From a virus (taxonomy: Duplodnaviria > Caudoviricetes): 64,000 nucleotides of DNA. The position numbers and the translations under genes are program-made. The notes under the pieces were generated by a model. It was given only the letters and a program-made list of their open reading frames with translations. It was not told the DNA's origin and did no database searches. Positions 1,576-53,996 of the stretch are shown one piece after another (within the stretch, counting starts at the first letter, position 1; every line of letters begins with the position of its first letter). Location of the stretch: IMG/VR virus record IMGVR_UViG_3300020048_000002; one strand, 5' to 3'.

Positions 1576-2475
1576 ATGCGTGTCGGCTGCGTCTCCCTTT
1601 GCACCCCCGGTTGGGCGGCCTCGGCTCATCGTGACTTGCTACCAGGGAGCCATGCGGTTGCCCTCGGCCCCTACACGGCTTGCATCGATGCTCGTCGAGT
1701 TGGCTTTGAGGTGCGGGACACAATCCTCGTTCTCTCGGCCGAAGGCCCCCGGTTCGCCTTCCTGCTCCGAAAGCCCTGTTCCGAAGCAACCGTAGCGGAG
1801 AACGTGTTGAAGCACGGAACGGGTGGGCTCAACATCAACGCTACCCGTGTTTCCCACGCTTCAGCTTCCGACTTCGAGAAGCACAAGGCGGGGGTCGAGG
1901 CCATCAAGGCCCGTGGGGGTCAGATGGAAGGCTCGTGGAAGAACTCCTCCGACCTCTCGGGAGCAAGCGAAGTGACCATGGCGGGCCGGTGGCCGAGTAA
2001 CCTCGTTTTGGTTCACGGGCCGGATTGCCAGAGGGAGGGGGTTCGATCCGCAGGGACGGGAGGGCGGAGAATTAACGAGAAAGAAGATTTTCAAGACGGG
2101 GTTCATGAAGGGTACAAACGAAAAAACCGTTCGATGTACACCCACAATATGGTAGGACAGTTACGCACGTACGGGCTCGAAACCATCGCCTCCTGGGCCT
2201 GCGAGCCCGGCTGTCCGGTTGCTGAGTTGGATGGGATGAGCGGACTGCTAAAGTCGGCCATCGGGCAAGCCGCCCAACAGATGACCAACAAGGCAACCGT
2301 CAACTTCAACGGGAAGGCCGTCTCAGAGCCAGGGAGAAATCAGTGGGGAGACTCAGGTGGGGCGTCCCGCTTCTTCCCCCAGTTCGAGTCCGAGGACGCC
2401 CTTCGAGCCTGGTTTGAGAGGCTGATCGGGCTAGACCCTCGCAAGCCGAAGGATGACCTGTCTGACCTCGGGTGA
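1576..2475 (+). CDS. degenerate phage DNA methyltransferase-like protein
   Basis: GFEVRDTI, RKP..EATVAENVLKHGTGGLNI, GRWPSNL and GGASRFF match phage N6/N4 MTases, but no DPPY or FxGxG motif is present. Confidence 0.65.
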   Translation: MRVGCVSLCTPGWAASAHRDLLPGSHAVALGPYTACIDARRVGFEVRDTILVLSAEGPRFAFLLRKPCSEATVAENVLKHGTGGLNINATRVSHASASDFEKHKAGVEAIKARGGQMEGSWKNSSDLSGASEVTMAGRWPSNLVLVHGPDCQREGVRSAGTGGRRINEKEDFQDGVHEGYKRKNRSMYTHNMVGQLRTYGLETIASWACEPGCPVAELDGMSGLLKSAIGQAAQQMTNKATVNFNGKAVSEPGRNQWGDSGGASRFFPQFESEDALRAWFERLIGLDPRKPKDDLSDLG

Positions 2476-6570: not shown

Positions 6571-7316
6571 AGCCGTGGTTCATCTACATACCGCACGACC
6601 CTCGTGAACCGGGGGTCGTGCGGTATGTAGGTTGGACGACGAACCCGAAGAAGCGGCTAGCTTTACACCTCAAGCAAGCTACACGCGGCTACGATACTAC
6701 CCGGTGCGGGAACTGGAAGCGGAGCCTGCTCCGTGAGGGGGTTACTCCGACCCTAACTGTCGTGGAAGAGGGCGAGGGTCCGGGGTGGGCGGCGGCTGAA
6801 GTGCGGTGGGTGGCTCACTGCCGCGCCCTAAGCGGGGAACTCCTGACGAACTTGACCGAGGGCGGAGAGGGAGCCCTCGGAGTGACGCGCTCCCCGGAGA
6901 CTCGTGCCAAAATGGGTGCGGCTAGTAGGGGCCGAAAACACTCTGAAGAGGTCAAGGCTCTTTTACGCGCCCAACGACTCGGCTCGAAGGCGGCTGACGA
7001 AGTTCGCGCGAGAATGAGTGTGGCACATCAAGGCAAGACCAAGACCCCCGACGTGATCGAAAAGTCCGCCGCCTTCTGGCGAGGGCGTAAGCACTCGGAT
7101 GCAACCAAGGAGAAGATTCGCGCTTCTCACGGAAGTTCGAGAGAGGTCGCCAAACCTAAGCGTTCGGAGAAGTCTCGATCCAAGACTAGCGCCTCACTCA
7201 AAGAGCACTATGCAAATCAAGGCGGGGGGCGAAAGATGTCCGAGGAGGCCAAGGAGAAGATCCGTCAAGCGGTCAAAGCGTACCGTGCGAGGGTGAAATC
7301 TGTAGCCTCGGATTGA
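6531..7316 (+). CDS. free-standing GIY-YIG-like homing endonuclease with NUMOD3 repeats
   Basis: IYIPHDPR...RYVGWT...R..H, LTNLTEGGEG, repeated GRKHSEE/SPETRAKM motifs; start uncertain. Confidence 0.8.
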   Translation: MRNDAPRGRDSDLKPWFIYIPHDPREPGVVRYVGWTTNPKKRLALHLKQATRGYDTTRCGNWKRSLLREGVTPTLTVVEEGEGPGWAAAEVRWVAHCRALSGELLTNLTEGGEGALGVTRSPETRAKMGAASRGRKHSEEVKALLRAQRLGSKAADEVRARMSVAHQGKTKTPDVIEKSAAFWRGRKHSDATKEKIRASHGSSREVAKPKRSEKSRSKTSASLKEHYANQGGGRKMSEEAKEKIRQAVKAYRARVKSVASD

Positions 7317-7348
7317 CTCCCGAGCCGAGTCCAAACGGACATGGCTCG

Positions 7349-7390
7349 CGGAGGGCGGCCCCCATCGATGGGGGCCGCCCTCCGTCGTTT
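7349..7390 (+). terminator. GC-rich hairpin (perfect 36-bp palindrome), probable terminator
   Basis: CGGAGGGCGGCCCCCATC/GATGGGGGCCGCCCTCCG followed by TCGTTT. Confidence 0.6.
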
Positions 7391-7628: not shown

Positions 7629-9287
7629 ATGAGTCGTTGGTGGATTTTGGGGGCAACGTTGACCGTCGCCTCTCTCGGAGTAGGGGGTTATGTATCGGCC
7701 CCTCATATTCTACGGTCTCAGGTGAGCAAACGGCTTCCGCCCGATGTTCACTTTCGAGACGTCGTGGTGACGTGGGATCAAGTCACCTTGCACGGGGTGA
7801 CGTTTGATCGTGGTTGGGTTCGAGGGTCTCTCGATACCGTCACGTCGAACCACGAAGGGACTCGCATCATTGTGAGCGGCGGGGAAGTGTCGGTTGACCT
7901 CGACCTCAAGCCCCAGGACGGTCAACCTAGCGGCGAAGGGTCCAAACGGACCGTGGACGCTAGCGGGCTTTCGCTCACCGTGAAGAAAGGCTCGTATACA
8001 GCCAACATCGAGGAGGCGTACACACAAGGGTCCAAGGTGTGTTTCGCTCACGGGGCGCTACAGAGCCCCGTCGTCACGGTGGAAAAAGGGTGTGTCGAAC
8101 GGAACGGCTCCAAGGTAGACCTGGAAAAGGTCGTAGCTCCCGACGTCACCTTCCAAGGGCTCGTCACGGGTCCGATTGTAGCCACAGGGGTTGTCCTAGA
8201 ACCCAAGACGAAACACGTCACGGCCAAAAAGGTCGAGACGGAAGTTACCTTTGAGGGGCAGTCCTTCCCGGTTGAAGCTACGGGAGTCGACGCACAGAAG
8301 GGGGAGAAAGAGGCTGTCAGCGCCTCAAGCATCCGGACCAAACACGCCTGGCTTGCCCCCGACTGGACGACCCTCGAAGACGTCAAGGTTACGCGGAGCG
8401 ACAAGTGGGAAGTCCAGGTCGGGAAGTCTCACATGACAGTCGATCCCGAGTCCCTCACTTTCGAGGGGTCGGAGTCGTGTGCAACGTGGATTGAGTCCTT
8501 ACCGAAAGATCTCCGGTCGTCTCCGCTTGATCGTCTAGAGATGACAGGGGACGCAAGTTTCAAGATCCAGTTGCGTCCGAAGTCCAGCTTCTCGCTGAAG
8601 GCGACCTGCAAAGCCGCATGTAAGAGCCTTCCCGATCTGCGTAAGCCTTTCACGTACACGGCATACACGTCGAAGCAGAAACCGTTTTCCCGTGTCAGCG
8701 GAAGACTAACGAAGGAGTGGGTCCCTCTTGGGCTCATGGGCGACATGCCGATGGCCGTCGTGAACATGGAGGACCCGGGGTTCCAGAAACATCGGGGGTT
8801 CATTGCTCAGGCGTTCGCCAATAGCCTCACAGACAACCTAAAGCAGGGGCGTTTCGTCCGTGGGGGCTCGACCCTCACGATGCAGCTAGCCAAGAATCTC
8901 TGGCTCAACCGGGAAAAGACGTTGGGCCGGAAAGCGCAAGAGTTCTTCCTCGCTCAAGCCTTGGAGTCTTGCTACCAAAAGGACGAGATCCTTGAACTCT
9001 ACTTGAACGTCGTCGAGTTTGGTCCCGATGTGTACGGGGCGGCAGCAGGAGCCCAGCACTGGTTCAAGAAGGCTCCCATGGAGCTTGAGCCCGAAGAAGC
9101 CTTCTGGCTAGCGAGCATCCTCCCCCGACCCAGTAGGACAGCCCCTCCGAGCGATGCCTCGTTGGACCGGATTCGGAAGCTCATGAAGAAGCTGTCCGAC
9201 GATGGGCGCATCCCCGATTTGATCGGGGAGAGCACCGAGGACGAGACGGTGCCCGAGGACAACACTGGATGGGAAGCAAATCAATGA
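7629..9287 (+). CDS. membrane-anchored monofunctional peptidoglycan transglycosylase (GT51, MtgA-like)
   Basis: N-terminal TM; EDPGFQKHRG, RGGSTLTMQLAKNL, RKAQE, KDEILELYLN, YGAAAGAQHWF. Confidence 0.9.
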   Translation: MSRWWILGATLTVASLGVGGYVSAPHILRSQVSKRLPPDVHFRDVVVTWDQVTLHGVTFDRGWVRGSLDTVTSNHEGTRIIVSGGEVSVDLDLKPQDGQPSGEGSKRTVDASGLSLTVKKGSYTANIEEAYTQGSKVCFAHGALQSPVVTVEKGCVERNGSKVDLEKVVAPDVTFQGLVTGPIVATGVVLEPKTKHVTAKKVETEVTFEGQSFPVEATGVDAQKGEKEAVSASSIRTKHAWLAPDWTTLEDVKVTRSDKWEVQVGKSHMTVDPESLTFEGSESCATWIESLPKDLRSSPLDRLEMTGDASFKIQLRPKSSFSLKATCKAACKSLPDLRKPFTYTAYTSKQKPFSRVSGRLTKEWVPLGLMGDMPMAVVNMEDPGFQKHRGFIAQAFANSLTDNLKQGRFVRGGSTLTMQLAKNLWLNREKTLGRKAQEFFLAQALESCYQKDEILELYLNVVEFGPDVYGAAAGAQHWFKKAPMELEPEEAFWLASILPRPSRTAPPSDASLDRIRKLMKKLSDDGRIPDLIGESTEDETVPEDNTGWEANQ

Positions 9288-16349: not shown

Positions 16350-17282
16350 GTGCAGAACAGTCACATCCTCTCCGTCACACAGTTTCAGGCGTCGGATCTT
16401 CAGCGGCTTTTTTACTACGCCGACCAAATCGCCAGCTCCAAGCCGCACGAGTACCGAGACGTCCTAGCGGGTCTGACCCTCGCCTGCGTCTTCTACGAGC
16501 CTTCAACTCGTACCTCGTCGAGCTTTATCGCAGCGATGTCGAAGCTCGGGGGCAACGTCATCCCGATCACCCAGGGGGTCCAGTTTTCCTCGGTGAGCAA
16601 GGGTGAAACGCTAGAGGACACTATCACTACGCTCGGCCAGTATGCCGACGCCATCGTGCTCAGGCACCCCGAGACGGGGGCGGTTCAACGTGCGGCCAAG
16701 ACAAGCCCCGTTCCTGTCATCAACGCCGGGGATGGAATCGGGGAGCATCCGACTCAAGCGTTCACGGATCTCTACACGATCCGTCGAGAGCTTGGCCGCC
16801 TTGAAAACCTCCACGTCGCATTTGTTGGAGACTTGGCCTACGGACGCACGGTTCACTCTCTAGTGCGTCTACTCACCCTGTACCCCAACATTCGAGTCAG
16901 CTTGATCTCGCCCGAAAGGCTCATCCTCGATGCCCACATCCGGTCCGAGTGCGCCTCGATCATCGTGACCGAAACGGCCGTGGAAAAGAGCCTGCACGAG
17001 GCCGTCGACATCCTCGAAGATGTCGACGTGGTTTACATGACCCGTGTGCAAAAGGAGAGGTTCATCTCTCCCGATGAGTACGCTCAGGTCAAGGACTCGT
17101 GTCTCTTGACCCCGGAGATCATGGGGATGTTGAAACTTGAGGCCCGTGTCCTGCACCCCCTCCCCAGGGTCAACGAGATCCCCGCCGTGCTCGACACGGA
17201 TCCTCGATCGGCTTATTTCCGGCAAGTCAAGAACGGGCTTTGGACTCGCATGGGGCTTCTGGCCATTCTTTTTGGGAAATGA
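16350..17282 (+). CDS. pyrB: aspartate carbamoyltransferase catalytic subunit
   Basis: FYEPSTRTSSSF, SKGETLEDT, NAGDGIGEHPTQ, YMTRVQKER, HPLPR. Confidence 0.95.
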   Translation: MQNSHILSVTQFQASDLQRLFYYADQIASSKPHEYRDVLAGLTLACVFYEPSTRTSSSFIAAMSKLGGNVIPITQGVQFSSVSKGETLEDTITTLGQYADAIVLRHPETGAVQRAAKTSPVPVINAGDGIGEHPTQAFTDLYTIRRELGRLENLHVAFVGDLAYGRTVHSLVRLLTLYPNIRVSLISPERLILDAHIRSECASIIVTETAVEKSLHEAVDILEDVDVVYMTRVQKERFISPDEYAQVKDSCLLTPEIMGMLKLEARVLHPLPRVNEIPAVLDTDPRSAYFRQVKNGLWTRMGLLAILFGK

Positions 17283-26660: not shown

Positions 26661-28955
26661 TCAGCCCGTTGCCTTGGACCCCTCTCGAACCATGACCGCC
26701 TCACTCGCCTTGGTAACCGTATCTCCGGTGATCCGGATTGCCTTGAGCGTTGGATCGCTTGGAGCCGTAAAACTGTAGGGCCGAAGAACCGTCTCCACGA
26801 TACCACGGAGGGCACGGACACCCGTAGGTCGCCTCTTGGCCTCCTGTGCGATGGCCCGCAACGCTTCCTCGTCGAACTGAAGGTCGATGCCATCCATCGA
26901 GAAAAGCGCCTGAAACTGTTTGATAATGGCGTTTTTCGGTTCCGTGAGGATGCGGACCATCTCGTGCTCCGTGAGATCAATCGTCGTGGTGATCACCGGC
27001 AGACGCCCCATGAGTTCGGGGATGAGCCCGAAGTCAAGGACATCATCCTCCCCCACTTGGAGGTACGTGTCGCTCTTTGTCAGCTTCGCCTTCTGGCCTG
27101 ACCCGAAGCCAATACCCGCCCCACGATTGACTCGTTTGTCGATGACCTCTTCGATGCCCGCAAAGCTCCCGGCGCAGATGAATAGGACGTTCGAGGTGTC
27201 GAACACGTCCCCTCCCGCCCCCACCTTCATTCCCATCCCACGGGGAACGACCATCTTGGAGCCTTCAAGGATCTTCAAGAGCGCCTGTTGAACACCCTCT
27301 CCCGACACGTCACGGTAGCCGGTGGCCCCACGACCCGACTTGCGGGCGAGCTTGTCGAACTCGTCGATGAAGATGATGCCCCATTGGGCACGCTCTACCT
27401 CACCATCGGCGTCCTGAATGAGCCCCTGGAGCAACGACTCCACGTCGTCTCCGACGTACCCCGCCTGCGTGAGCCGGGTTGCGTCTCCCACGAAGAAGGG
27501 AACCCGGAGCATTTTTGCGATGGTACGTGCCAGTTCCGTTTTTCCCGTGTTGTGGGTTACGGTGAAATCGTCGAGCAGATAACGATGGTCCCCGTCGAGA
27601 ACAAATCCGAAGTACTCCTCGGGTGGCAATTCTCGGGTCGTGAAACCCACCCGGAGCACGTCTTTCGGCTGCTGACGCTTCCGAGCCTTTTTGTGGGGTA
27701 CACGAACGGGGATCTGGTTGACGTGCCCCGAGATCATGATCCGGAAGTACTTCCCCTCGGTACCGTTCTGGCTCTTCTTTTGACAGAGCTTGACGTAGGC
27801 CGCAAGTCCGACACTCCGGGCCACGAAAGCCACATCATCGGCGAGAGCCCGTGACTTTGACACGTAGTCATAACAGTTGTCCCTGACGGAGTAGCTTCCG
27901 TCCGTGTCGATGAGGCCCGCCAGAAGAGAGAGGCGCTCGTCCCGAGAAGCGGTTTTGAAGGGATGCGGGATGAACTTTGTTTCCGAATCGCATCCAAACA
28001 AACCCACGCTCCGAAGCACCTCACGGATGGGATTCTTCCTCCCACCACTCCGCTGGGTGCTCAAATGATAGGTAGCAGAAGACGTACCCTCGGCCTCGAC
28101 TTTGACACACAAGCCATACATCGCTGCCTGAACATAGACTTCCTTCACGATCTCGTGATCTTCGTTTGTGACAGCGACCCGATTGCAGAGGCAACCGTCT
28201 CCAAGCAGGATGCCCATAAAATAGGGGTCGAGGGGCAGGGGTTCAACTTGAGCCTCAAAGGTCACGCCAGTACGGAAGAGCTTGTGTACAGCCTTCTGCG
28301 TGCGAGACCACTTGAGGTATTCCGCAAGCCACACATCCTTAATCTCATTCGCCGCCCGGTAACCCGAGCCTCCCTTGTATTGCGTCCGTGTCAGGGTGAG
28401 AATATGGCCTTTGTTCACCACCCAAGGCTCGCCCTTTGAGGGAGTGATCTCGACCATATCTTCAACGCCCCGGTGAAGTTCCAGCACCGTGCGGGGCGTC
28501 GAGTCCGGCCCCATGAGCTTGTCTCCAACCTTCACGTTTTCGACAGCGAGGAGAGTGCCGTCCCACATCAGCACCTTCTGTCCCTTACGGTGGCAGCCGC
28601 TAGGTCCCAGCAACAAAATATTAGACTTCTGGACATCCACCCCAAGGTCCACCCCTTGCTTGATAGCGTCTCGACGCTTGTAGTGGTTGTAGACGGCGAT
28701 AGCGAGATCGGTCTTAGCTCTATCCTGAGCGATGATGTGCTCGTCGAGAAGGTTCTTGATCTCGACGGGCTTTCGCACGGGCTCGTCCTTATGGGCCGTC
28801 TGCGTCTCAGTCTTCTGGCTGTGTGAGTAGGCTTTCCAGCCATCCTCCAAACACCGGTTGCAGATGTACGGCCCACCCTCGCCACCAATGAGAGCCTTGA
28901 CCTCATTCCTCGGGCGGTTGCAGAACGAACACCTAGCGATCGTCTTTGTGGACAT
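26661..28955 (-). CDS. clpX: ATP-dependent Clp protease ATP-binding subunit ClpX, intein-containing
   Basis: C4 zinc finger CSFC..CNRC, AVYNHYKR, KSNILLLGP, TQAGYVGDDVE, IDEFDK, RDVSGEGVQQALLK, GIGF loop. Confidence 0.95.
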   Translation of the reverse strand: MSTKTIARCSFCNRPRNEVKALIGGEGGPYICNRCLEDGWKAYSHSQKTETQTAHKDEPVRKPVEIKNLLDEHIIAQDRAKTDLAIAVYNHYKRRDAIKQGVDLGVDVQKSNILLLGPSGCHRKGQKVLMWDGTLLAVENVKVGDKLMGPDSTPRTVLELHRGVEDMVEITPSKGEPWVVNKGHILTLTRTQYKGGSGYRAANEIKDVWLAEYLKWSRTQKAVHKLFRTGVTFEAQVEPLPLDPYFMGILLGDGCLCNRVAVTNEDHEIVKEVYVQAAMYGLCVKVEAEGTSSATYHLSTQRSGGRKNPIREVLRSVGLFGCDSETKFIPHPFKTASRDERLSLLAGLIDTDGSYSVRDNCYDYVSKSRALADDVAFVARSVGLAAYVKLCQKKSQNGTEGKYFRIMISGHVNQIPVRVPHKKARKRQQPKDVLRVGFTTRELPPEEYFGFVLDGDHRYLLDDFTVTHNTGKTELARTIAKMLRVPFFVGDATRLTQAGYVGDDVESLLQGLIQDADGEVERAQWGIIFIDEFDKLARKSGRGATGYRDVSGEGVQQALLKILEGSKMVVPRGMGMKVGAGGDVFDTSNVLFICAGSFAGIEEVIDKRVNRGAGIGFGSGQKAKLTKSDTYLQVGEDDVLDFGLIPELMGRLPVITTTIDLTEHEMVRILTEPKNAIIKQFQALFSMDGIDLQFDEEALRAIAQEAKRRPTGVRALRGIVETVLRPYSFTAPSDPTLKAIRITGDTVTKASEAVMVREGSKATG
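27549..28595 (-). mobile_element. intein (349 aa) with LAGLIDADG endonuclease in ClpX Walker A
   Basis: GPSG|CHRKG...LAGLIDTDG...VTHN|TGKT. Confidence 0.92.
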
Positions 28956-49908: not shown

Positions 49909-51657
49909 TCATTCGTCGTCGTCGCCCTTGCCTTGCATACGACGAACAAGATCCTTCGTGGACGACTCCTTGCCGAAGTCGAGAGCGCCGACAGCGGACT
50001 CCCCGAGCACCCGATCGATCAGGTTCTTCTTTGACTGAAGAAGGGCCAGGACGTGGTGGTCGATGGTCTTGCGGTCCTTCTTCTTCTCACGGGGCCGCTC
50101 AGCGACAAGGTGGTAGCAGACGATGTGCTGATGAGGGCTCCCGATACGGATCGGACGACCAAGGAGCTGGACGTAGTTGCCCCACGACCACGGGGCGTCG
50201 TAAAACACCATCGCAGAGGCGGCTTGAAGGTTGATGGCTTCCGAGCCCGCATCCGTGATGAAGATGACCTTCGTGTCGGATTCGAGGTTCTGGAACGCCT
50301 CTTGGTTGCGACGACGGGCCTTGTCGTCTTCCTTACCGGTGATGCGGACGCTCTTGATCTTGGCCTCGGCCAGGATGTGCTGAAGACGTGGGACGATACT
50401 GGCGAACCTCGTGTAGACAATGACCTTTTCATCCTCTAGCTCATCGACGATGAGGTCGAGAAGCGCCTGTTCCTTTGAGCCGAGCTTGTCGATCTTGAGG
50501 TACTCGTCGCGGAACATGCCCGTTTCGATCTCGGTCCCTTCCTCGAACTTCAAGGTAGCGAGCGAGTTCACGACCTGCTGGCAATAGATGAGGCTGACGA
50601 ACGCCTTGTGCTCCTCGTAGTCCTTGACCGTACCGTCCCCTAGCTCGAACACGCCGGTTAGGGCCTCGGAGTACTTGGCGTCCTCGGCAGGGGTGATCTC
50701 GCAAGCGATTTCTTTCGTGATGAGGGTCGGAAGCTCCTCACTGATCGTGTGCTTTTGCCGCCCAAGAAAGAAAGGGTCGATACGGTCCCGGAAGTGCTGA
50801 AGATTCCGGTAGCCTACGACCAACGGGACCGAACGCCCACCGCCAACCGGCATGAGACGGGTCACGCAGTAGTCGTTCATGAACGCCGTCTTTGTCGAGA
50901 AAAGATCCGGTACGAGCGCCTTGTAGATCGAGAACCCCTCCATCAGGTTGTTCTTGAGCAAGGTCGCCGTGAGCCCGTAGACCCTATGAGATCTCTGCGA
51001 GAGCTGAGAGACCACCTGCCATGTCTTGGTCGAATGGTTCTTGAACGCCGTAGCTTCGTCGAACACAACGACGATGCTCTCCAGGTCGTTGGTGAGCCCG
51101 TTGACGAGCCCCCGCATCATCACACCCTTGTCCTTCGGGTGACTCTTCTTCAGCCCGCCACCGTGATCCCAGTCTCGTACTAGGATGTGGTAGTTGACGA
51201 GCAAAACGGGCTTCGTGTCCCCGTCCACCGGGTGCTTGGCCCAGGCTTCGTAGGTCTTGCGCCGTTCGTCCAGACTACCCGAGACGATGTACGTTTTGAC
51301 CCCCGTGGTGAACCGCTGAATCTCGCCGTCCCACTGACGCAGGGCGGACTTCGGGGTCACGACGATGACCTTGTTGGCCGGTTCCTTCGGCCAAAGGTAA
51401 CAGAGGGTACCTATCGTCTGAAGCGTTTTACCCGTGCCCGTGGCGTCCCCGAGCACGAGGCGCTTCATCATGAGCAGGTGGTAGATGCCCTGACACTGGT
51501 AGTACCGGAGCCGGAGAGGCTGAGGTTTCCCATCCAGCCCCTTGATCTCCGCCCGAAGCATCGGGGTCGGCTTGAGGGCTATCGTTTTGGACGCTCGAAC
51601 CTGCCTGAGCTTTTCGTAGGCAGTCGCAATCTCGGGAGGCAGTGGTTTATCAGCCAT
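49909..51657 (-). CDS. SNF2-family helicase
   Basis: LRYYQ, DATGTGKT, FDEAT, LTAT...NN, AGSEAINLQ, QLLGR..RIG. Confidence 0.9.
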   Translation of the reverse strand: MADKPLPPEIATAYEKLRQVRASKTIALKPTPMLRAEIKGLDGKPQPLRLRYYQCQGIYHLLMMKRLVLGDATGTGKTLQTIGTLCYLWPKEPANKVIVVTPKSALRQWDGEIQRFTTGVKTYIVSGSLDERRKTYEAWAKHPVDGDTKPVLLVNYHILVRDWDHGGGLKKSHPKDKGVMMRGLVNGLTNDLESIVVVFDEATAFKNHSTKTWQVVSQLSQRSHRVYGLTATLLKNNLMEGFSIYKALVPDLFSTKTAFMNDYCVTRLMPVGGGRSVPLVVGYRNLQHFRDRIDPFFLGRQKHTISEELPTLITKEIACEITPAEDAKYSEALTGVFELGDGTVKDYEEHKAFVSLIYCQQVVNSLATLKFEEGTEIETGMFRDEYLKIDKLGSKEQALLDLIVDELEDEKVIVYTRFASIVPRLQHILAEAKIKSVRITGKEDDKARRRNQEAFQNLESDTKVIFITDAGSEAINLQAASAMVFYDAPWSWGNYVQLLGRPIRIGSPHQHIVCYHLVAERPREKKKDRKTIDHHVLALLQSKKNLIDRVLGESAVGALDFGKESSTKDLVRRMQGKGDDDE

Positions 51658-51707
51658 GCCCCCTCTTACACCGGAGGACGGACCCAACCCGGTGTTTTTT
51701 GCAGCCA

Positions 51708-52255
51708 AAAACGCGAAAGGCCCGCATCCTTTCGGAGCGAGCCCTGCACGGGTTCTGGAGCACGTTTGCCTATGTTGGGCGTCTGTCGGCTCCTTGCGGT
51801 AGCCTTCCACCGATCCCATTCGGGGACCAGCCTTTCGACTGGTCACGACCTCCGAGGGGCCTCAGTATGCGGTTGCCCGCGATACCGTTCCACCTCTGCC
51901 CTCCTTGACCTCACCCGCCTGTTGCTTGCGGGGTGTTGGGGGCTGTCTCTCAGCACCTAGCTTGAGTCGGCTCTTTCGAGCGTTCTCACCGCACCCGTCC
52001 GGCCCGCTTGGATGGTGTTACCCACCGCGCTGCCTTCCCGGTCTGCCTGCCCGAACGGTGTCCGTTTCCTTCCACCGTCCTTGCCGCTTGACCGGCGGAC
52101 CCTTTCAGGTCCGTGGTCCCCTTCGAGCTTCTCGGCGATCCTTTCGGGGTCCGATTCACCGGCAGCCTTGCGCCTACCGTGTGTTGCTCTCTTAGGGGAA
52201 GACCGACAAACCCTTGGCCTTGCGGCACTCAGGTTCGGCGGTCAGCGCCGAAGAC
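51708..52255 (-). ncRNA. large structured non-coding RNA (~550 nt), class unassigned
   Basis: Intergenic; about ten GNRA-capped hairpins on the minus strand; long-range 5'/3' pairing; upstream promoter and 3' hairpin with U-tract. Confidence 0.8.
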
Positions 52256-52262
52256 GAGGCCC

Positions 52263-52290
52263 ACTATACGCAGGCTGAGACGAAGTGCAA
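52263..52290 (-). promoter_or_regulatory. sigma70-type promoter TTGCAC-N16-TATAGT for the ncRNA
   Basis: 16-bp spacer and GC-rich discriminator GGGCCTC, as in stable-RNA promoters. Confidence 0.7.
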
Positions 52291-52321
52291 CAACTATTTT
52301 CGACACCGATGTCGATTTTTC

Positions 52322-52885
52322 TCAATCGGCGGAAAACATGCTGTTTTGGAGCGATAAAAACCGCTGGACGACTCGTTCCGATGCAAGTCGGCAGTCGAGG
52401 TTGCGGGGTGGGGGCGTGTCCTGACGCCCCTTCCAGAACGTCGTGATGACGTGGGCCGTACGCCCACGTAGCTCGAACACGACTTTCAAGCTGTTCTTCC
52501 CCACCCACTCGATCTTCCGACCTTGAGAAACGTCACGGTACATCCGATCGTAGTTCGGATCTCGCTTCGCCTTCCACTCGTCCAGTTGACGCACGAAATC
52601 GGAGAGGGCCTGTCGAACATCCTCTACCGTGATGCTGCGCAAATCCATGCGGTATTGCCCGTGGGCCGTGATCAAGATCTCTTGGATCGGCCCGGTGCCC
52701 CGCTCCTTGTCCAGACGATAGATCTTGGAGGCATCGGAGTTGGATAGGTCCACCCCAGACTCCACCTCATCGATCATGTCCTCCTTGAGCTGAGGCTCCC
52801 GGACGGCACGATCGATTCGTTGGACTACCTGGCATGGGCCACCGGGCTTGCCGAGGGGCGGCGTGAGATCGGCTTCGTGTTTCAC
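52322..52885 (-). CDS. protein with DUF4258/RelE-like domain and C-terminal SERVVQRF tag
   Basis: ITAHGQYRMDLRSITVEDV...LKVVF......VITTF. Confidence 0.6.
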   Translation of the reverse strand: MKHEADLTPPLGKPGGPCQVVQRIDRAVREPQLKEDMIDEVESGVDLSNSDASKIYRLDKERGTGPIQEILITAHGQYRMDLRSITVEDVRQALSDFVRQLDEWKAKRDPNYDRMYRDVSQGRKIEWVGKNSLKVVFELRGRTAHVITTFWKGRQDTPPPRNLDCRLASERVVQRFLSLQNSMFSAD

Positions 52886-52892
52886 GGGGGCC

Positions 52893-53996
52893 TCACTTCA
52901 TCTGCGAGATAGCAGCTTCGAGCGTCGCTTTGGTGGACGGGGAGAGGTTGAACTTGTCGACGAATAGTTGCAGGAGCTTCTTGCCGTCCCGCATCCGAGT
53001 GACGTTCTTCTTCTCGCCTCCGTAGGTGTAATCCCCAAAGATCTTCCGTAGAAGCCCCGCCTGCATGAAGCGCGTGATGTCGTTCTCGTCAAGGTACTCA
53101 GCCTTGCCGTTACAAACGATGGCCACCGACTGCCAATCCGACGTGGAGTATCGTTCCTTCACCTGGTAGTGATGAGGCTTCTGGTCGTAAGACTTGCCGT
53201 AGGCAACCTCGATGACGTGCTTGCGCCCCATGACCTTGGGGTCGTCCCCGGCCACAGCTCCAGACTCAGCGAGCCAGTGCTTGATCGAGAGGGCCGATCC
53301 ACGCGGAGCCTTTTCGCTAAAGTGCCAACCACGGGCGTCCACAACCTTCGAGTTGAACTTGCCCTCGAAGCGAATGAGCTTCATGGCTTTGACGACATTC
53401 CCGTAAAGCCATGCCGGTTCGGTGCCTTCGCTACCCGAGATCGGAATCTCAAGCACCTTCATGGCCCACTTGTCCTGGTCGGCACCCGCACCGATGAAGT
53501 ACTGCTTGTAGATGAAGTGCTGTGCGGCCACGAAGACATGCTTTGAGTCCGTCTTGCCGTAAGCCACCCAGCAAGTATCCGAGCGGTAGAACTCGTCCGA
53601 CGAGTACCCGGTGCCCCGCTGCGTGTCGGTCACGAACTGCCAATCGACGCCGCCAGGGACACCAGCCTTGCTCTTGGCCTCGTCGAAAGAGACTTCCTCC
53701 GTCTTGGCTTTTTCCCAGTGCGTCTTTGTTGGACCACCGGAGCTAGGAGCGTCGTAGGAGCTAGGTCCCGAACGATCGTAGGTCGGACGCTGCTTGCCCG
53801 TGAGAACGTCCTTGGCGACGTTCACCTCGACCATCTTAGCGGGGTCGCCACCCCGGTCAGGGTGCATCTCGAACGCCTTGGTTCGCCATGCCTTCGTAAT
53901 CTCGGCCTCGGAAGGATTGTCTTGGGGGCCGAAACCAAGGAGGGCCTTGGCTTCTTCCATCGACATCGCGAGCATCAAAAAGGCGTAACGGTTCAT
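52893..53996 (-). CDS. J-domain (DnaJ-like) protein, paralog of 23467-24459
   Basis: MSMEEAKALLGF...HPDRGGDPAKMVEVNVAKDVL. Confidence 0.85.
   Translation of the reverse strand: MNRYAFLMLAMSMEEAKALLGFGPQDNPSEAEITKAWRTKAFEMHPDRGGDPAKMVEVNVAKDVLTGKQRPTYDRSGPSSYDAPSSGGPTKTHWEKAKTEEVSFDEAKSKAGVPGGVDWQFVTDTQRGTGYSSDEFYRSDTCWVAYGKTDSKHVFVAAQHFIYKQYFIGAGADQDKWAMKVLEIPISGSEGTEPAWLYGNVVKAMKLIRFEGKFNSKVVDARGWHFSEKAPRGSALSIKHWLAESGAVAGDDPKVMGRKHVIEVAYGKSYDQKPHHYQVKERYSTSDWQSVAIVCNGKAEYLDENDITRFMQAGLLRKIFGDYTYGGEKKNVTRMRDGKKLLQLFVDKFNLSPSTKATLEAAISQMK

What the first reader, a model, noticed from the sequence alone, without database searches (positions are those of the whole stretch)
51708..52290. Large (~550 nt) highly structured phage ncRNA with its own promoter and terminator
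Seen: the ~660-bp gap between the SNF2 helicase and the late operon has no credible ORF. On the minus strand it carries about ten hairpins closed by GNRA loops: GCC-GCAA-GGC, GACCCC-GAAA-GGAUC, CGGACCU-GAAA-GGGUCCG (52096-52113), GGUGG-GUAA-CACC, GCUC-GAAA-GAGC, GCGG-GCAA-CCGC, GACCAGUC-GAAA-GGCUGGUC (51825-51844), CUACC-GCAA-GGAG and UCC-GAAA-GGA. Nested multistems include CCCCU/AGGGG, CCGGUC/GACCGG and GGACGGUG/CACCGUUC. A long-range helix pairs 5' GUUUGUCGG-UCUUCC (52197-52211) with 3' GGAAGG...CCGACAGAC (51781-51808). Upstream is TTGCAC-N16-TATAGT with a GC-rich discriminator; downstream is a hairpin plus UUUUU. Established: phage-associated large ncRNAs of this size and complexity include GOLLD and ROOL. 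Inference: this is a diverged member of those or a new class. I saw no RNase P GAGGAAAGUCC, tmRNA ends or intron signatures.
Basis: partly seen in the sequence, partly recalled or inferred. Interest (0 to 1): 0.88.

Follow-up and report, generated by a model that had tools for sequence, protein, structure and literature searches.

The report
New large folded RNA, huge phages
The gene-free gap in this giant freshwater phage is a real gene for a roughly 545-base RNA whose intricate fold is kept across related phages, which turns up by itself in lake RNA samples and matches no known RNA family; it is a new large phage RNA whose job is not yet shown.

Summary
Confirmed. Window ~52255-51708 (minus strand) is a stand-alone structured ncRNA gene of a huge freshwater phage clade. 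It folds better than shuffles on this strand only (z -4.3 to -4.9, against +0.1 to +0.2). I found seven further copies; six lineages in all, the five compared being 74-82% identical. Of 154 modelled pairs, 33 show compensatory changes. No ORF is conserved; the sigma70-type promoter and terminator are. In three metatranscriptome studies, contigs cover only the RNA, not its flanks. No relevant Rfam 15 family (GOLLD, ROOL, OLE, RNase P, introns) matches at E<=10. The cassette sits at two different loci and is missing from both sites in contigs of a close relative, so it is accessory and not a helicase leader. Best mechanism (inferred, 0.5): an abundant, compactly folded, trans-acting RNA working like GOLLD/ROOL, perhaps self-assembling. 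The scan has noted other large jumbo-phage RNAs, but found this sequence only in this genome; my models miss RaK2.

The parts
52300..52315 (.). Inverted repeat in an A-rich stretch just upstream of -35 (UP-element-like; also reads as a plus-strand terminator)
   Evidence: left arm conserved in six copies, right arm degenerate in L041/L037, stretch mostly replaced in L049; role inferred
52285..52290 (-). -35 box (TTGCAC)
   Evidence: conserved with a 16-nt spacer in all copies checked (TTGCGT in L049) while the spacer sequence varies
52263..52268 (-). -10 box (TATAGT; TATAAT in L035)
51708..52255 (-). The ncRNA, about 545 nt. The start (~52255) is inferred from promoter spacing and from where conservation begins; the end is inferred from the terminator
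   Evidence: RNA-library contigs lie within 51795-52247 only
51945..52255 (-). 5' domain, closed by P1 (52255-52247 with 51954-51945): a seven-way junction with arms P2-P9, a three-way junction, and conserved GNRA loops at 52223-52220, 52171-52168 and 52068-52065
   Evidence: the arms covary; P1 itself is nearly invariant (one one-sided change)
52106..52109 (-). Pseudoknot/bridge PK1, 5' strand; pairs with 51959-51956
   Evidence: 3 of 4 pairs change on both sides; 0.017 such helices expected per column-shuffled alignment; caveats in the full report
51956..51959 (-). PK1, 3' strand
51855..51943 (-). Two linker hairpins: P10 (conserved core 51932-51914) and P11 (variable length, 24 nt shorter in L041)
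51757..51853 (-). 3' domain: closing helix 51853-51845 with 51765-51757; GNRA hairpin 51844-51825; predicted H-type pseudoknot PK2 (51823-51820 with 51813-51810, and 51818-51814 with 51780-51776); GNRA-capped P14
   Evidence: 5 of 8 pairs compensatory in the hairpin; one compensatory pair in each PK2 stem; the closing helix is invariant but for one one-sided change
51708..51750 (-). Intrinsic terminator hairpin with a weak U tract
   Evidence: the model of this part matches ordinary gene-end terminators of related phages, e.g. after a long conserved ORF, probably the major capsid gene
51667..51673 (-). CGGTGTA motif before the SNF2 start, a recurring phage promoter-like element; SNF2 keeps it in relatives that lack the RNA
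49909..51654 (-). Downstream neighbour: SNF2 helicase (not part of the RNA unit)
52322..52885 (-). Upstream neighbour: DUF4258-like protein with a RelE/BrnT-like fold hint; not consistently linked to the RNA
   Evidence: (below cut-off); adjacent to the RNA in only 2 of 7 placed copies

Best explanation
A self-contained gene for a ~545-nt ornate non-coding RNA of an undescribed family. Host sigma70-type RNA polymerase transcribes it from its own promoter to its own terminator (inferred from conserved elements). It accumulates as a stable RNA (supported by metatranscriptome contigs). It folds into two domains: a multi-arm 5' domain closed by the very 5' end, and a small pseudoknotted 3' domain (arms shown by covariation; domain-closing helices and pseudoknots inferred). 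GNRA loops, A-rich internal loops and two covarying long-range pairings pack it into a compact particle (inferred). It most likely works in trans, like GOLLD and ROOL: a protein-independent structural RNA, possibly a homo-oligomer in which PK1 or PK2 is an inter-chain bridge, serving as scaffold, container or decoy during infection. It is dispensable for the core phage cycle.
For: Strand-specific stability. 98.3% of cells paired; 33 of 154 pairs change on both sides against 13.2 +/- 2.4 shuffled and 1-6 for slid partners. A further variant from RNA run X9, not used to build the model, keeps 17 of 20 changed pairs, 7 by double change. Five loops stay in the GNRA class, three of them while changing sequence. 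98 of 114 invariant unpaired positions are A or G. RNA-library contigs from three studies fall only within 51795-52247 of a 3-kb stretch, and two stop at 52240 and 52247, next to the predicted start; a DNA run also has an exact piece in a flanking gene. Promoter, RNA and terminator move as one cassette between two loci. GOLLD and ROOL are phage RNAs of like size whose covarying tertiary pairings proved to be inter-chain bridges of RNA-only cages; ROOL is very abundant yet non-essential (PMC12286853).
Against: No direct evidence for function, oligomer state or partners. Only about six independent lineages, so no phylogeny-corrected covariation test was possible, and the structure was derived from the same sequences. 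No conserved palindromic loop for a symmetric kissing contact. Large ornate RNAs need not multimerise: raiA is a monomer and HEARO needs its protein (PMC12286853). Contigs show neither ends, strand nor level, DNA carry-over in RNA libraries is not excluded, and the runs were chosen for holding this region. No tRNA neighbours, unlike many GOLLD/ROOL copies.
Confidence: 0.5

Rival explanations
1. The RNA is the scaffold of a ribonucleoprotein, or a decoy/antitoxin that binds a specific protein, for example the neighbouring DUF4258 RelE/BrnT-like nuclease or a host defence nuclease.
For: DUF4258 lies directly upstream in the window and in L035; the Atlas links its fold to BrnT/RelE (TM about 0.5, a lead only). 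Patchy, accessory distribution fits counter-defence. OLE and HEARO are protein-binding precedents (PMC12286853).
Against: Five of seven placed copies lie downstream of a DHH gene with no DUF4258 adjacent. L036, L038 and L039 carry DUF4258 without the RNA beside it. The RNA has its own promoter and none of the tandem repeats of type III antitoxins; GGA motifs are not conserved in hairpin loops as in CsrB-type sponges.
Confidence: 0.23
2. A ribozyme, or the remnant of a selfish RNA element (intron-derived, or a guide RNA that lost its protein), which would explain why it moves between loci.
For: Size and complexity in the ribozyme range; two predicted pseudoknots; two genomic positions; absent from both sites in L036 and L052 (one sequencing run).
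Against: No Rfam intron, RNase P, HEARO or small-ribozyme match. No group II domain V or group I P7 signature on inspection of alignment A2. An HDV-like junction look-alike at 51822-51815 has the wrong topology. No adjacent RT, nuclease or transposase, and no interrupted gene. One copy in the window. The helicase-side site holds different small genes in relatives, so it is a variable spot anyway.
Confidence: 0.13
3. A highly diverged member of GOLLD, ROOL or another described large RNA family.
For: Length close to the ROOL mean of 581 nt (PMC5737381); phage-borne; ROOL has few conserved nucleotides, so distant members may be missed.
Against: cmscan of five copies finds no such family up to E=10. 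My model has three multistem junctions and two pseudoknots against six and three for ROOL. No tRNA island.
Confidence: 0.08
4. A cis-acting leader (riboswitch or attenuator) for the SNF2 helicase/replication operon.
For: It lies on the same strand just upstream of SNF2; the 7-mer GCGGGCC occurs both at 52007-52001 and in the terminator, so an alternative pairing with the terminator's 5' arm is possible.
Against: In L019, L040, L041 and L049 no SNF2 follows, only a convergent non-coding element or a 60-aa ORF. SNF2 has its own CGGTGTA element and keeps it in relatives without the RNA. The alternative pairing shows no compensatory change.
Confidence: 0.04
5. A protein-coding gene, a DNA-level structure, or chance folding of GC-rich DNA.
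For: Open frames of 80-100 codons overlap the region; GC is 61-64%.
Against: Frameshifts and stops in every frame; no codon bias; G-U-tolerant covariation and stability on one strand only.
Confidence: 0.02

Closest known systems
ROOL RNA (PMC5737381, PMC12286853)
   Same: Similar length (mean 581 nt), phage-borne, ornate multi-junction fold with pseudoknots, abundant and non-essential in the one tested host.
   Different: No covariance-model match; three junctions and two predicted pseudoknots rather than six and three; no tRNA neighbours; GC-rich freshwater huge phages; octamer not tested.
GOLLD RNA (PMC12286853)
   Same: Phage-encoded, separable 5' and 3' domains with a variable linker between them, GNRA/A-minor-type motifs, freshwater occurrence.
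   Different: About 545 nt against often more than 800 nt; no match to the conserved GOLLD 3' domain; no tRNA link; 14-mer cage not tested.
OLE and raiA motif RNAs (PMC12286853)
   Same: Large, stand-alone, structured bacterial ncRNAs with unresolved mechanism; OLE is 577 nt.
   Different: No Rfam match; host-encoded rather than phage-encoded; no OapA-like neighbour. raiA is much shorter (about 200 nt, from memory) and monomeric.
Large RNAs of other jumbo phages noted earlier by this scan (e.g. RaK2-like multi-copy RNAs; unchecked AI notes)
   Same: Same theme: promoter-to-terminator, 350-1100 nt, ornate, no Rfam match.
   Different: Models R1 and R3 find nothing in RaK2; this RNA appears as a single copy in the window; the scan's sequence look-up returns only this stretch.

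Membership tests
ROOL | Match to the Rfam covariance model | tested here: not met
   no hit at E<=10 for window, L019, L035, L040, L041
ROOL | Length near 581 nt, phage/prophage context | tested here: met
   about 520-565 nt in full copies, all in phage-type contigs
ROOL | [quoted passage not shown] | tested here: inconclusive
   three junctions and two pseudoknots modelled; further ones could be hidden in invariant columns
ROOL | Octameric RNA-only nanocage | not testable with these tools
   needs mass photometry or cryo-EM
GOLLD | Match to the Rfam model, in particular the conserved 3' region | tested here: not met
GOLLD | Length often above 800 nt | tested here: not met
   about 545 nt between promoter and terminator
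GOLLD / ROOL | Frequent position next to tRNA genes (typical, not universal) | tested here: not met
   no tRNA in the window or in L019, L035, L037, L040, L041
GOLLD | 14-mer nanocage | not testable with these tools
   needs cryo-EM
OLE | Rfam match and linked OapA gene | tested here: not met
   no Rfam hit; neighbours are DUF4258/SNF2 or DHH/small ORFs
RNase P RNA | P4 pseudoknot with conserved regions CR-I and CR-V | tested here: not met
   no Rfam hit; the CR-V look-alike near 51758-51750 lies at the base of the terminator and has no P4 partner; the P13 look-alike at 51996-51978 is not conserved
Group II intron (including permuted forms) | Domain V with catalytic triad and two-base bulge; domain VI branch A | tested here: not met
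   no Rfam hit; inspection of A2: the only candidate hairpin is the terminator (9+3 bp, single bulge, no AGC/CGC triad)
Group I intron | P3-P7 core and flanking exons | tested here: not met
   no Rfam hit; no P7 pairing on inspection; no interrupted gene
HDV-like ribozyme | Nested double pseudoknot with the P2 5' strand upstream of P3, inside P1 | tested here: not met
   the strand after the look-alike junction pairs downstream (51780-51776, covarying), and the preceding helix is a plain hairpin in L041
Type III toxin-antitoxin | Tandem-repeat RNA co-transcribed with, and always linked to, an RNase toxin | tested here: not met
   no repeats seen in the alignment; DUF4258 adjacent in 2 of 7 placed copies and present without the RNA in L036, L038, L039

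The most novel reading that the evidence does not exclude
A third, independently evolved kind of phage RNA-only assembly (after GOLLD and ROOL), or a new catalytic RNA, in which PK1 switches between a local GNRA hairpin and an inter-chain bridge to control assembly; it would be one of several distinct large RNAs carried by the same huge-phage genome.
Probability: 0.3. Interest if true: 0.85.

Novelty: new variant of a known kind. Interest (0 to 1): 0.68.

Why it matters
Only a handful of bacterial or phage RNAs above 500 nt with this complexity are known, and recent cryo-EM showed that two of them form RNA-only cages of unknown purpose; whether cage formation is common among large natural RNAs is an open question (PMC12286853). 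This is an unrelated family with defined ends, a covariation-backed model, signs of expression in the wild and natural variants. It can be transcribed in vitro and tested directly. Limits: the family is small so far, phage and host are uncultured, and no function is shown.

Tried and rejected
No whole genome is held for the window. blastn found nothing meaningful in cultured phages or plasmids. Five exact-pattern scans of IMG/VR and one of GTDB genomes returned only chance matches (32/35, 56-57/59). BLAST and three covariance models over 38 IMG/VR records of the wider clade (four at least 90% complete) found no homologue; R1 and R3 also found none in LR745208, Tunturi_5 or RaK2. Many of these records are fragments and no positive control genome was in the set, so this is weak evidence of absence. 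The 3' model hit only ordinary terminators. 79 DHH-centred viral loci lack the RNA. Single-family Rfam searches on L019 were not possible. Resemblances to RNase P, T-box T-loops, a kink-turn, the HDV junction and group II domain V were considered; each failed on conservation or topology. Invariant alternative pairings (52248-52243 with 52032-52027; 52008-52001 with 51743-51736) show no compensatory change and are left open. The host was not identified (one search gave no names). Four literature searches aimed at this RNA or its clade found no description, but the library lacks many journals. No complex or structure prediction was run.

Full report
Setting. The window is part of a huge bacteriophage genome: DNA polymerase with inteins, DnaB, ClpX, SNF2, tail-like proteins. 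Relatives lie on IMG/VR contigs of up to 530 kb. The best match among deposited phages is an uncultured 485-kb genome at 41%. Runs that hold the region are almost all freshwater or subsurface. The host was not determined.

The minus strand folds at z -4.9 and the plus strand at +0.1. Rfam gives nothing for the stretch up to E=10, and ARAGORN finds no tRNA or tmRNA.

Expression. I laid three RNA runs from three studies and one DNA run on 50500-53500. All six RNA contigs fall inside 51795-52247; none touches the 2.4 kb of flanking genes. Two stop at 52240 and 52247, 8-15 bases short of the start predicted from the promoter. The DNA run has exact pieces both in the RNA and in the DnaJ-domain gene. 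This supports a discrete, stable transcript. Contigs cannot show strand, ends or level, the runs were picked for holding 51400-52600, and DNA carry-over is not excluded. Run X9 also holds a second variant about 84% alike.

Homologues. A 20-mer shared by the two X9 variants found a full copy in a JGI metagenome, L019, 83% identical from the upstream A-rich stretch to the terminator and unrelated on either side. Following neighbouring proteins gave L035, L037, L040, L041 and L049. Lineages are 74-82% identical; L037 is 98% like L019, and L049 is close to L041. The cassette sits at two loci: after DUF4258 (window, L035; SNF2 follows in the window), and after a YAcAr-DHH pair, upstream of topoisomerase I where the contig reaches that far (L019, L037, L040, L041, L049). 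These contigs belong to the same phage clade: DHH relatives lie on the same IMG/VR contigs as the SNF2 relatives. L036 has the same gene order and an 85% identical SNF2 but no RNA there; L052, from the same run, lacks it at the DHH site. No copy was found in 38 more distant records. The RNA is therefore an accessory, relocatable unit of one subclade, as far as these searches reach.

Not coding, not a leader. Every frame of 50 codons or more is broken in homologues and substitutions are spread evenly over codon positions. The downstream gene is not conserved, and SNF2 has its own CGGTGTA element, which precedes many genes of this phage. The 3' hairpin looked atypical because of its weak U tract, but its model matches the terminators that end ordinary genes in relatives, so it is the clade's usual terminator.

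Structure. On alignment A2 a 154-pair model has 98.3% of cells paired and 33 pairs with changes on both sides; shuffles give 13.2 +/- 2.4 and slid partners 1-6. These controls lean towards a model derived from the same sequences. The better test is the X9 variant, which was left out: 17 of its 20 changed pairs are kept, 7 by double change, and the three breaks lie beside indel calls or unlisted changes. The 5' end pairs with 51954-51945 and closes a 310-nt domain. Two hairpins follow, one of variable length, then a 97-nt 3' domain and the terminator. The two domain-closing helices are nearly invariant, so they are plausible but not proven.

Pseudoknots. PK1 pairs 52109-52106 with 51959-51956: CU/AG becomes UC/GA in L019/L037 and G-U becomes U-A in L040. 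Column shuffling gives 0.017 such helices per alignment. PK2 has H-type topology with one compensatory pair in each stem; it rests on four sequences.

How it probably works. Shown: a conserved, strand-specific fold with conserved promoter and terminator. Supported: expression as a separate RNA. Inferred: compact tertiary packing through five conserved GNRA loops, purine-rich invariant loops and PK1/PK2. By analogy: action in trans as an RNA-only particle like GOLLD and ROOL, whose covarying long-range pairs turned out to join different chains (PMC12286853). I give this 0.5, and an actual homo-oligomer about 0.3. A protein-binding scaffold or decoy gets 0.23; DUF4258 is a poor candidate partner because the linkage is inconsistent. 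A ribozyme or selfish remnant gets 0.13, a diverged known family 0.08, a leader 0.04, and coding or chance 0.02.

Verdict. A real, apparently undescribed family of large ornate phage ncRNA. It may work like GOLLD/ROOL but fails the membership tests for both. New variant of a known kind; interest 0.68.

Noticed in passing
L019:7400-7668 (-), L040:2440-2704 (-), L041:3715-3978 (-), L049:10977-11240 (-): A second conserved non-coding element of about 270-330 nt faces the large RNA at the DHH locus, with a phage-type promoter and a terminator. About 90% identical across four copies, 4 compensatory pairs of 70, no Rfam hit, but z only -0.09. Scan notes place a similar element 158 kb beyond this window.
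   Followed up: partly
window 7262-7389 (+): The only Rfam hit in the window is sbcD RNA at 40.5 bits against a cut-off of 40. It overlaps the end of an ORF and is driven by a near-perfect palindromic hairpin, so it is probably a terminator rather than sbcD.
   Followed up: partly
window 4236, 7611, 20029, 21675 (+); 51673, 49907, 42172, 35775, 28971, 3429 (-): CGGTGTA sits about 15-30 nt before many start codons, a likely phage-specific promoter element; it is also seen in relatives.
   Followed up: partly
L136, about 1580-1950 (-): A ~350-nt apparently non-coding, hairpin-rich stretch ending in a terminator in a 407-kb relative; no Rfam hit. It shares a short motif with the 3' end of the second element above.
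   Followed up: partly
window 52322-52885 and homologues P0002-P0032: The DUF4258-like proteins carry a short 'RVxxRFL'-type tag at either the N- or the C-terminus depending on the phage, possibly a targeting or processing signal.
   Followed up: no
window 16350-17282 (+), 7629-9287 (+), 26661-28955 (-): The phage carries host-type genes: an aspartate/ornithine carbamoyltransferase, a transglycosylase-domain protein and an intein-bearing ClpX. These could be used to assign the host.
   Followed up: no
L036:10547-11100, L038:912-1873, L001:5440-5990: In relatives without the RNA, the site after DUF4258 or before SNF2 holds small opposite-strand genes, so it is a variable insertion spot.
   Followed up: partly
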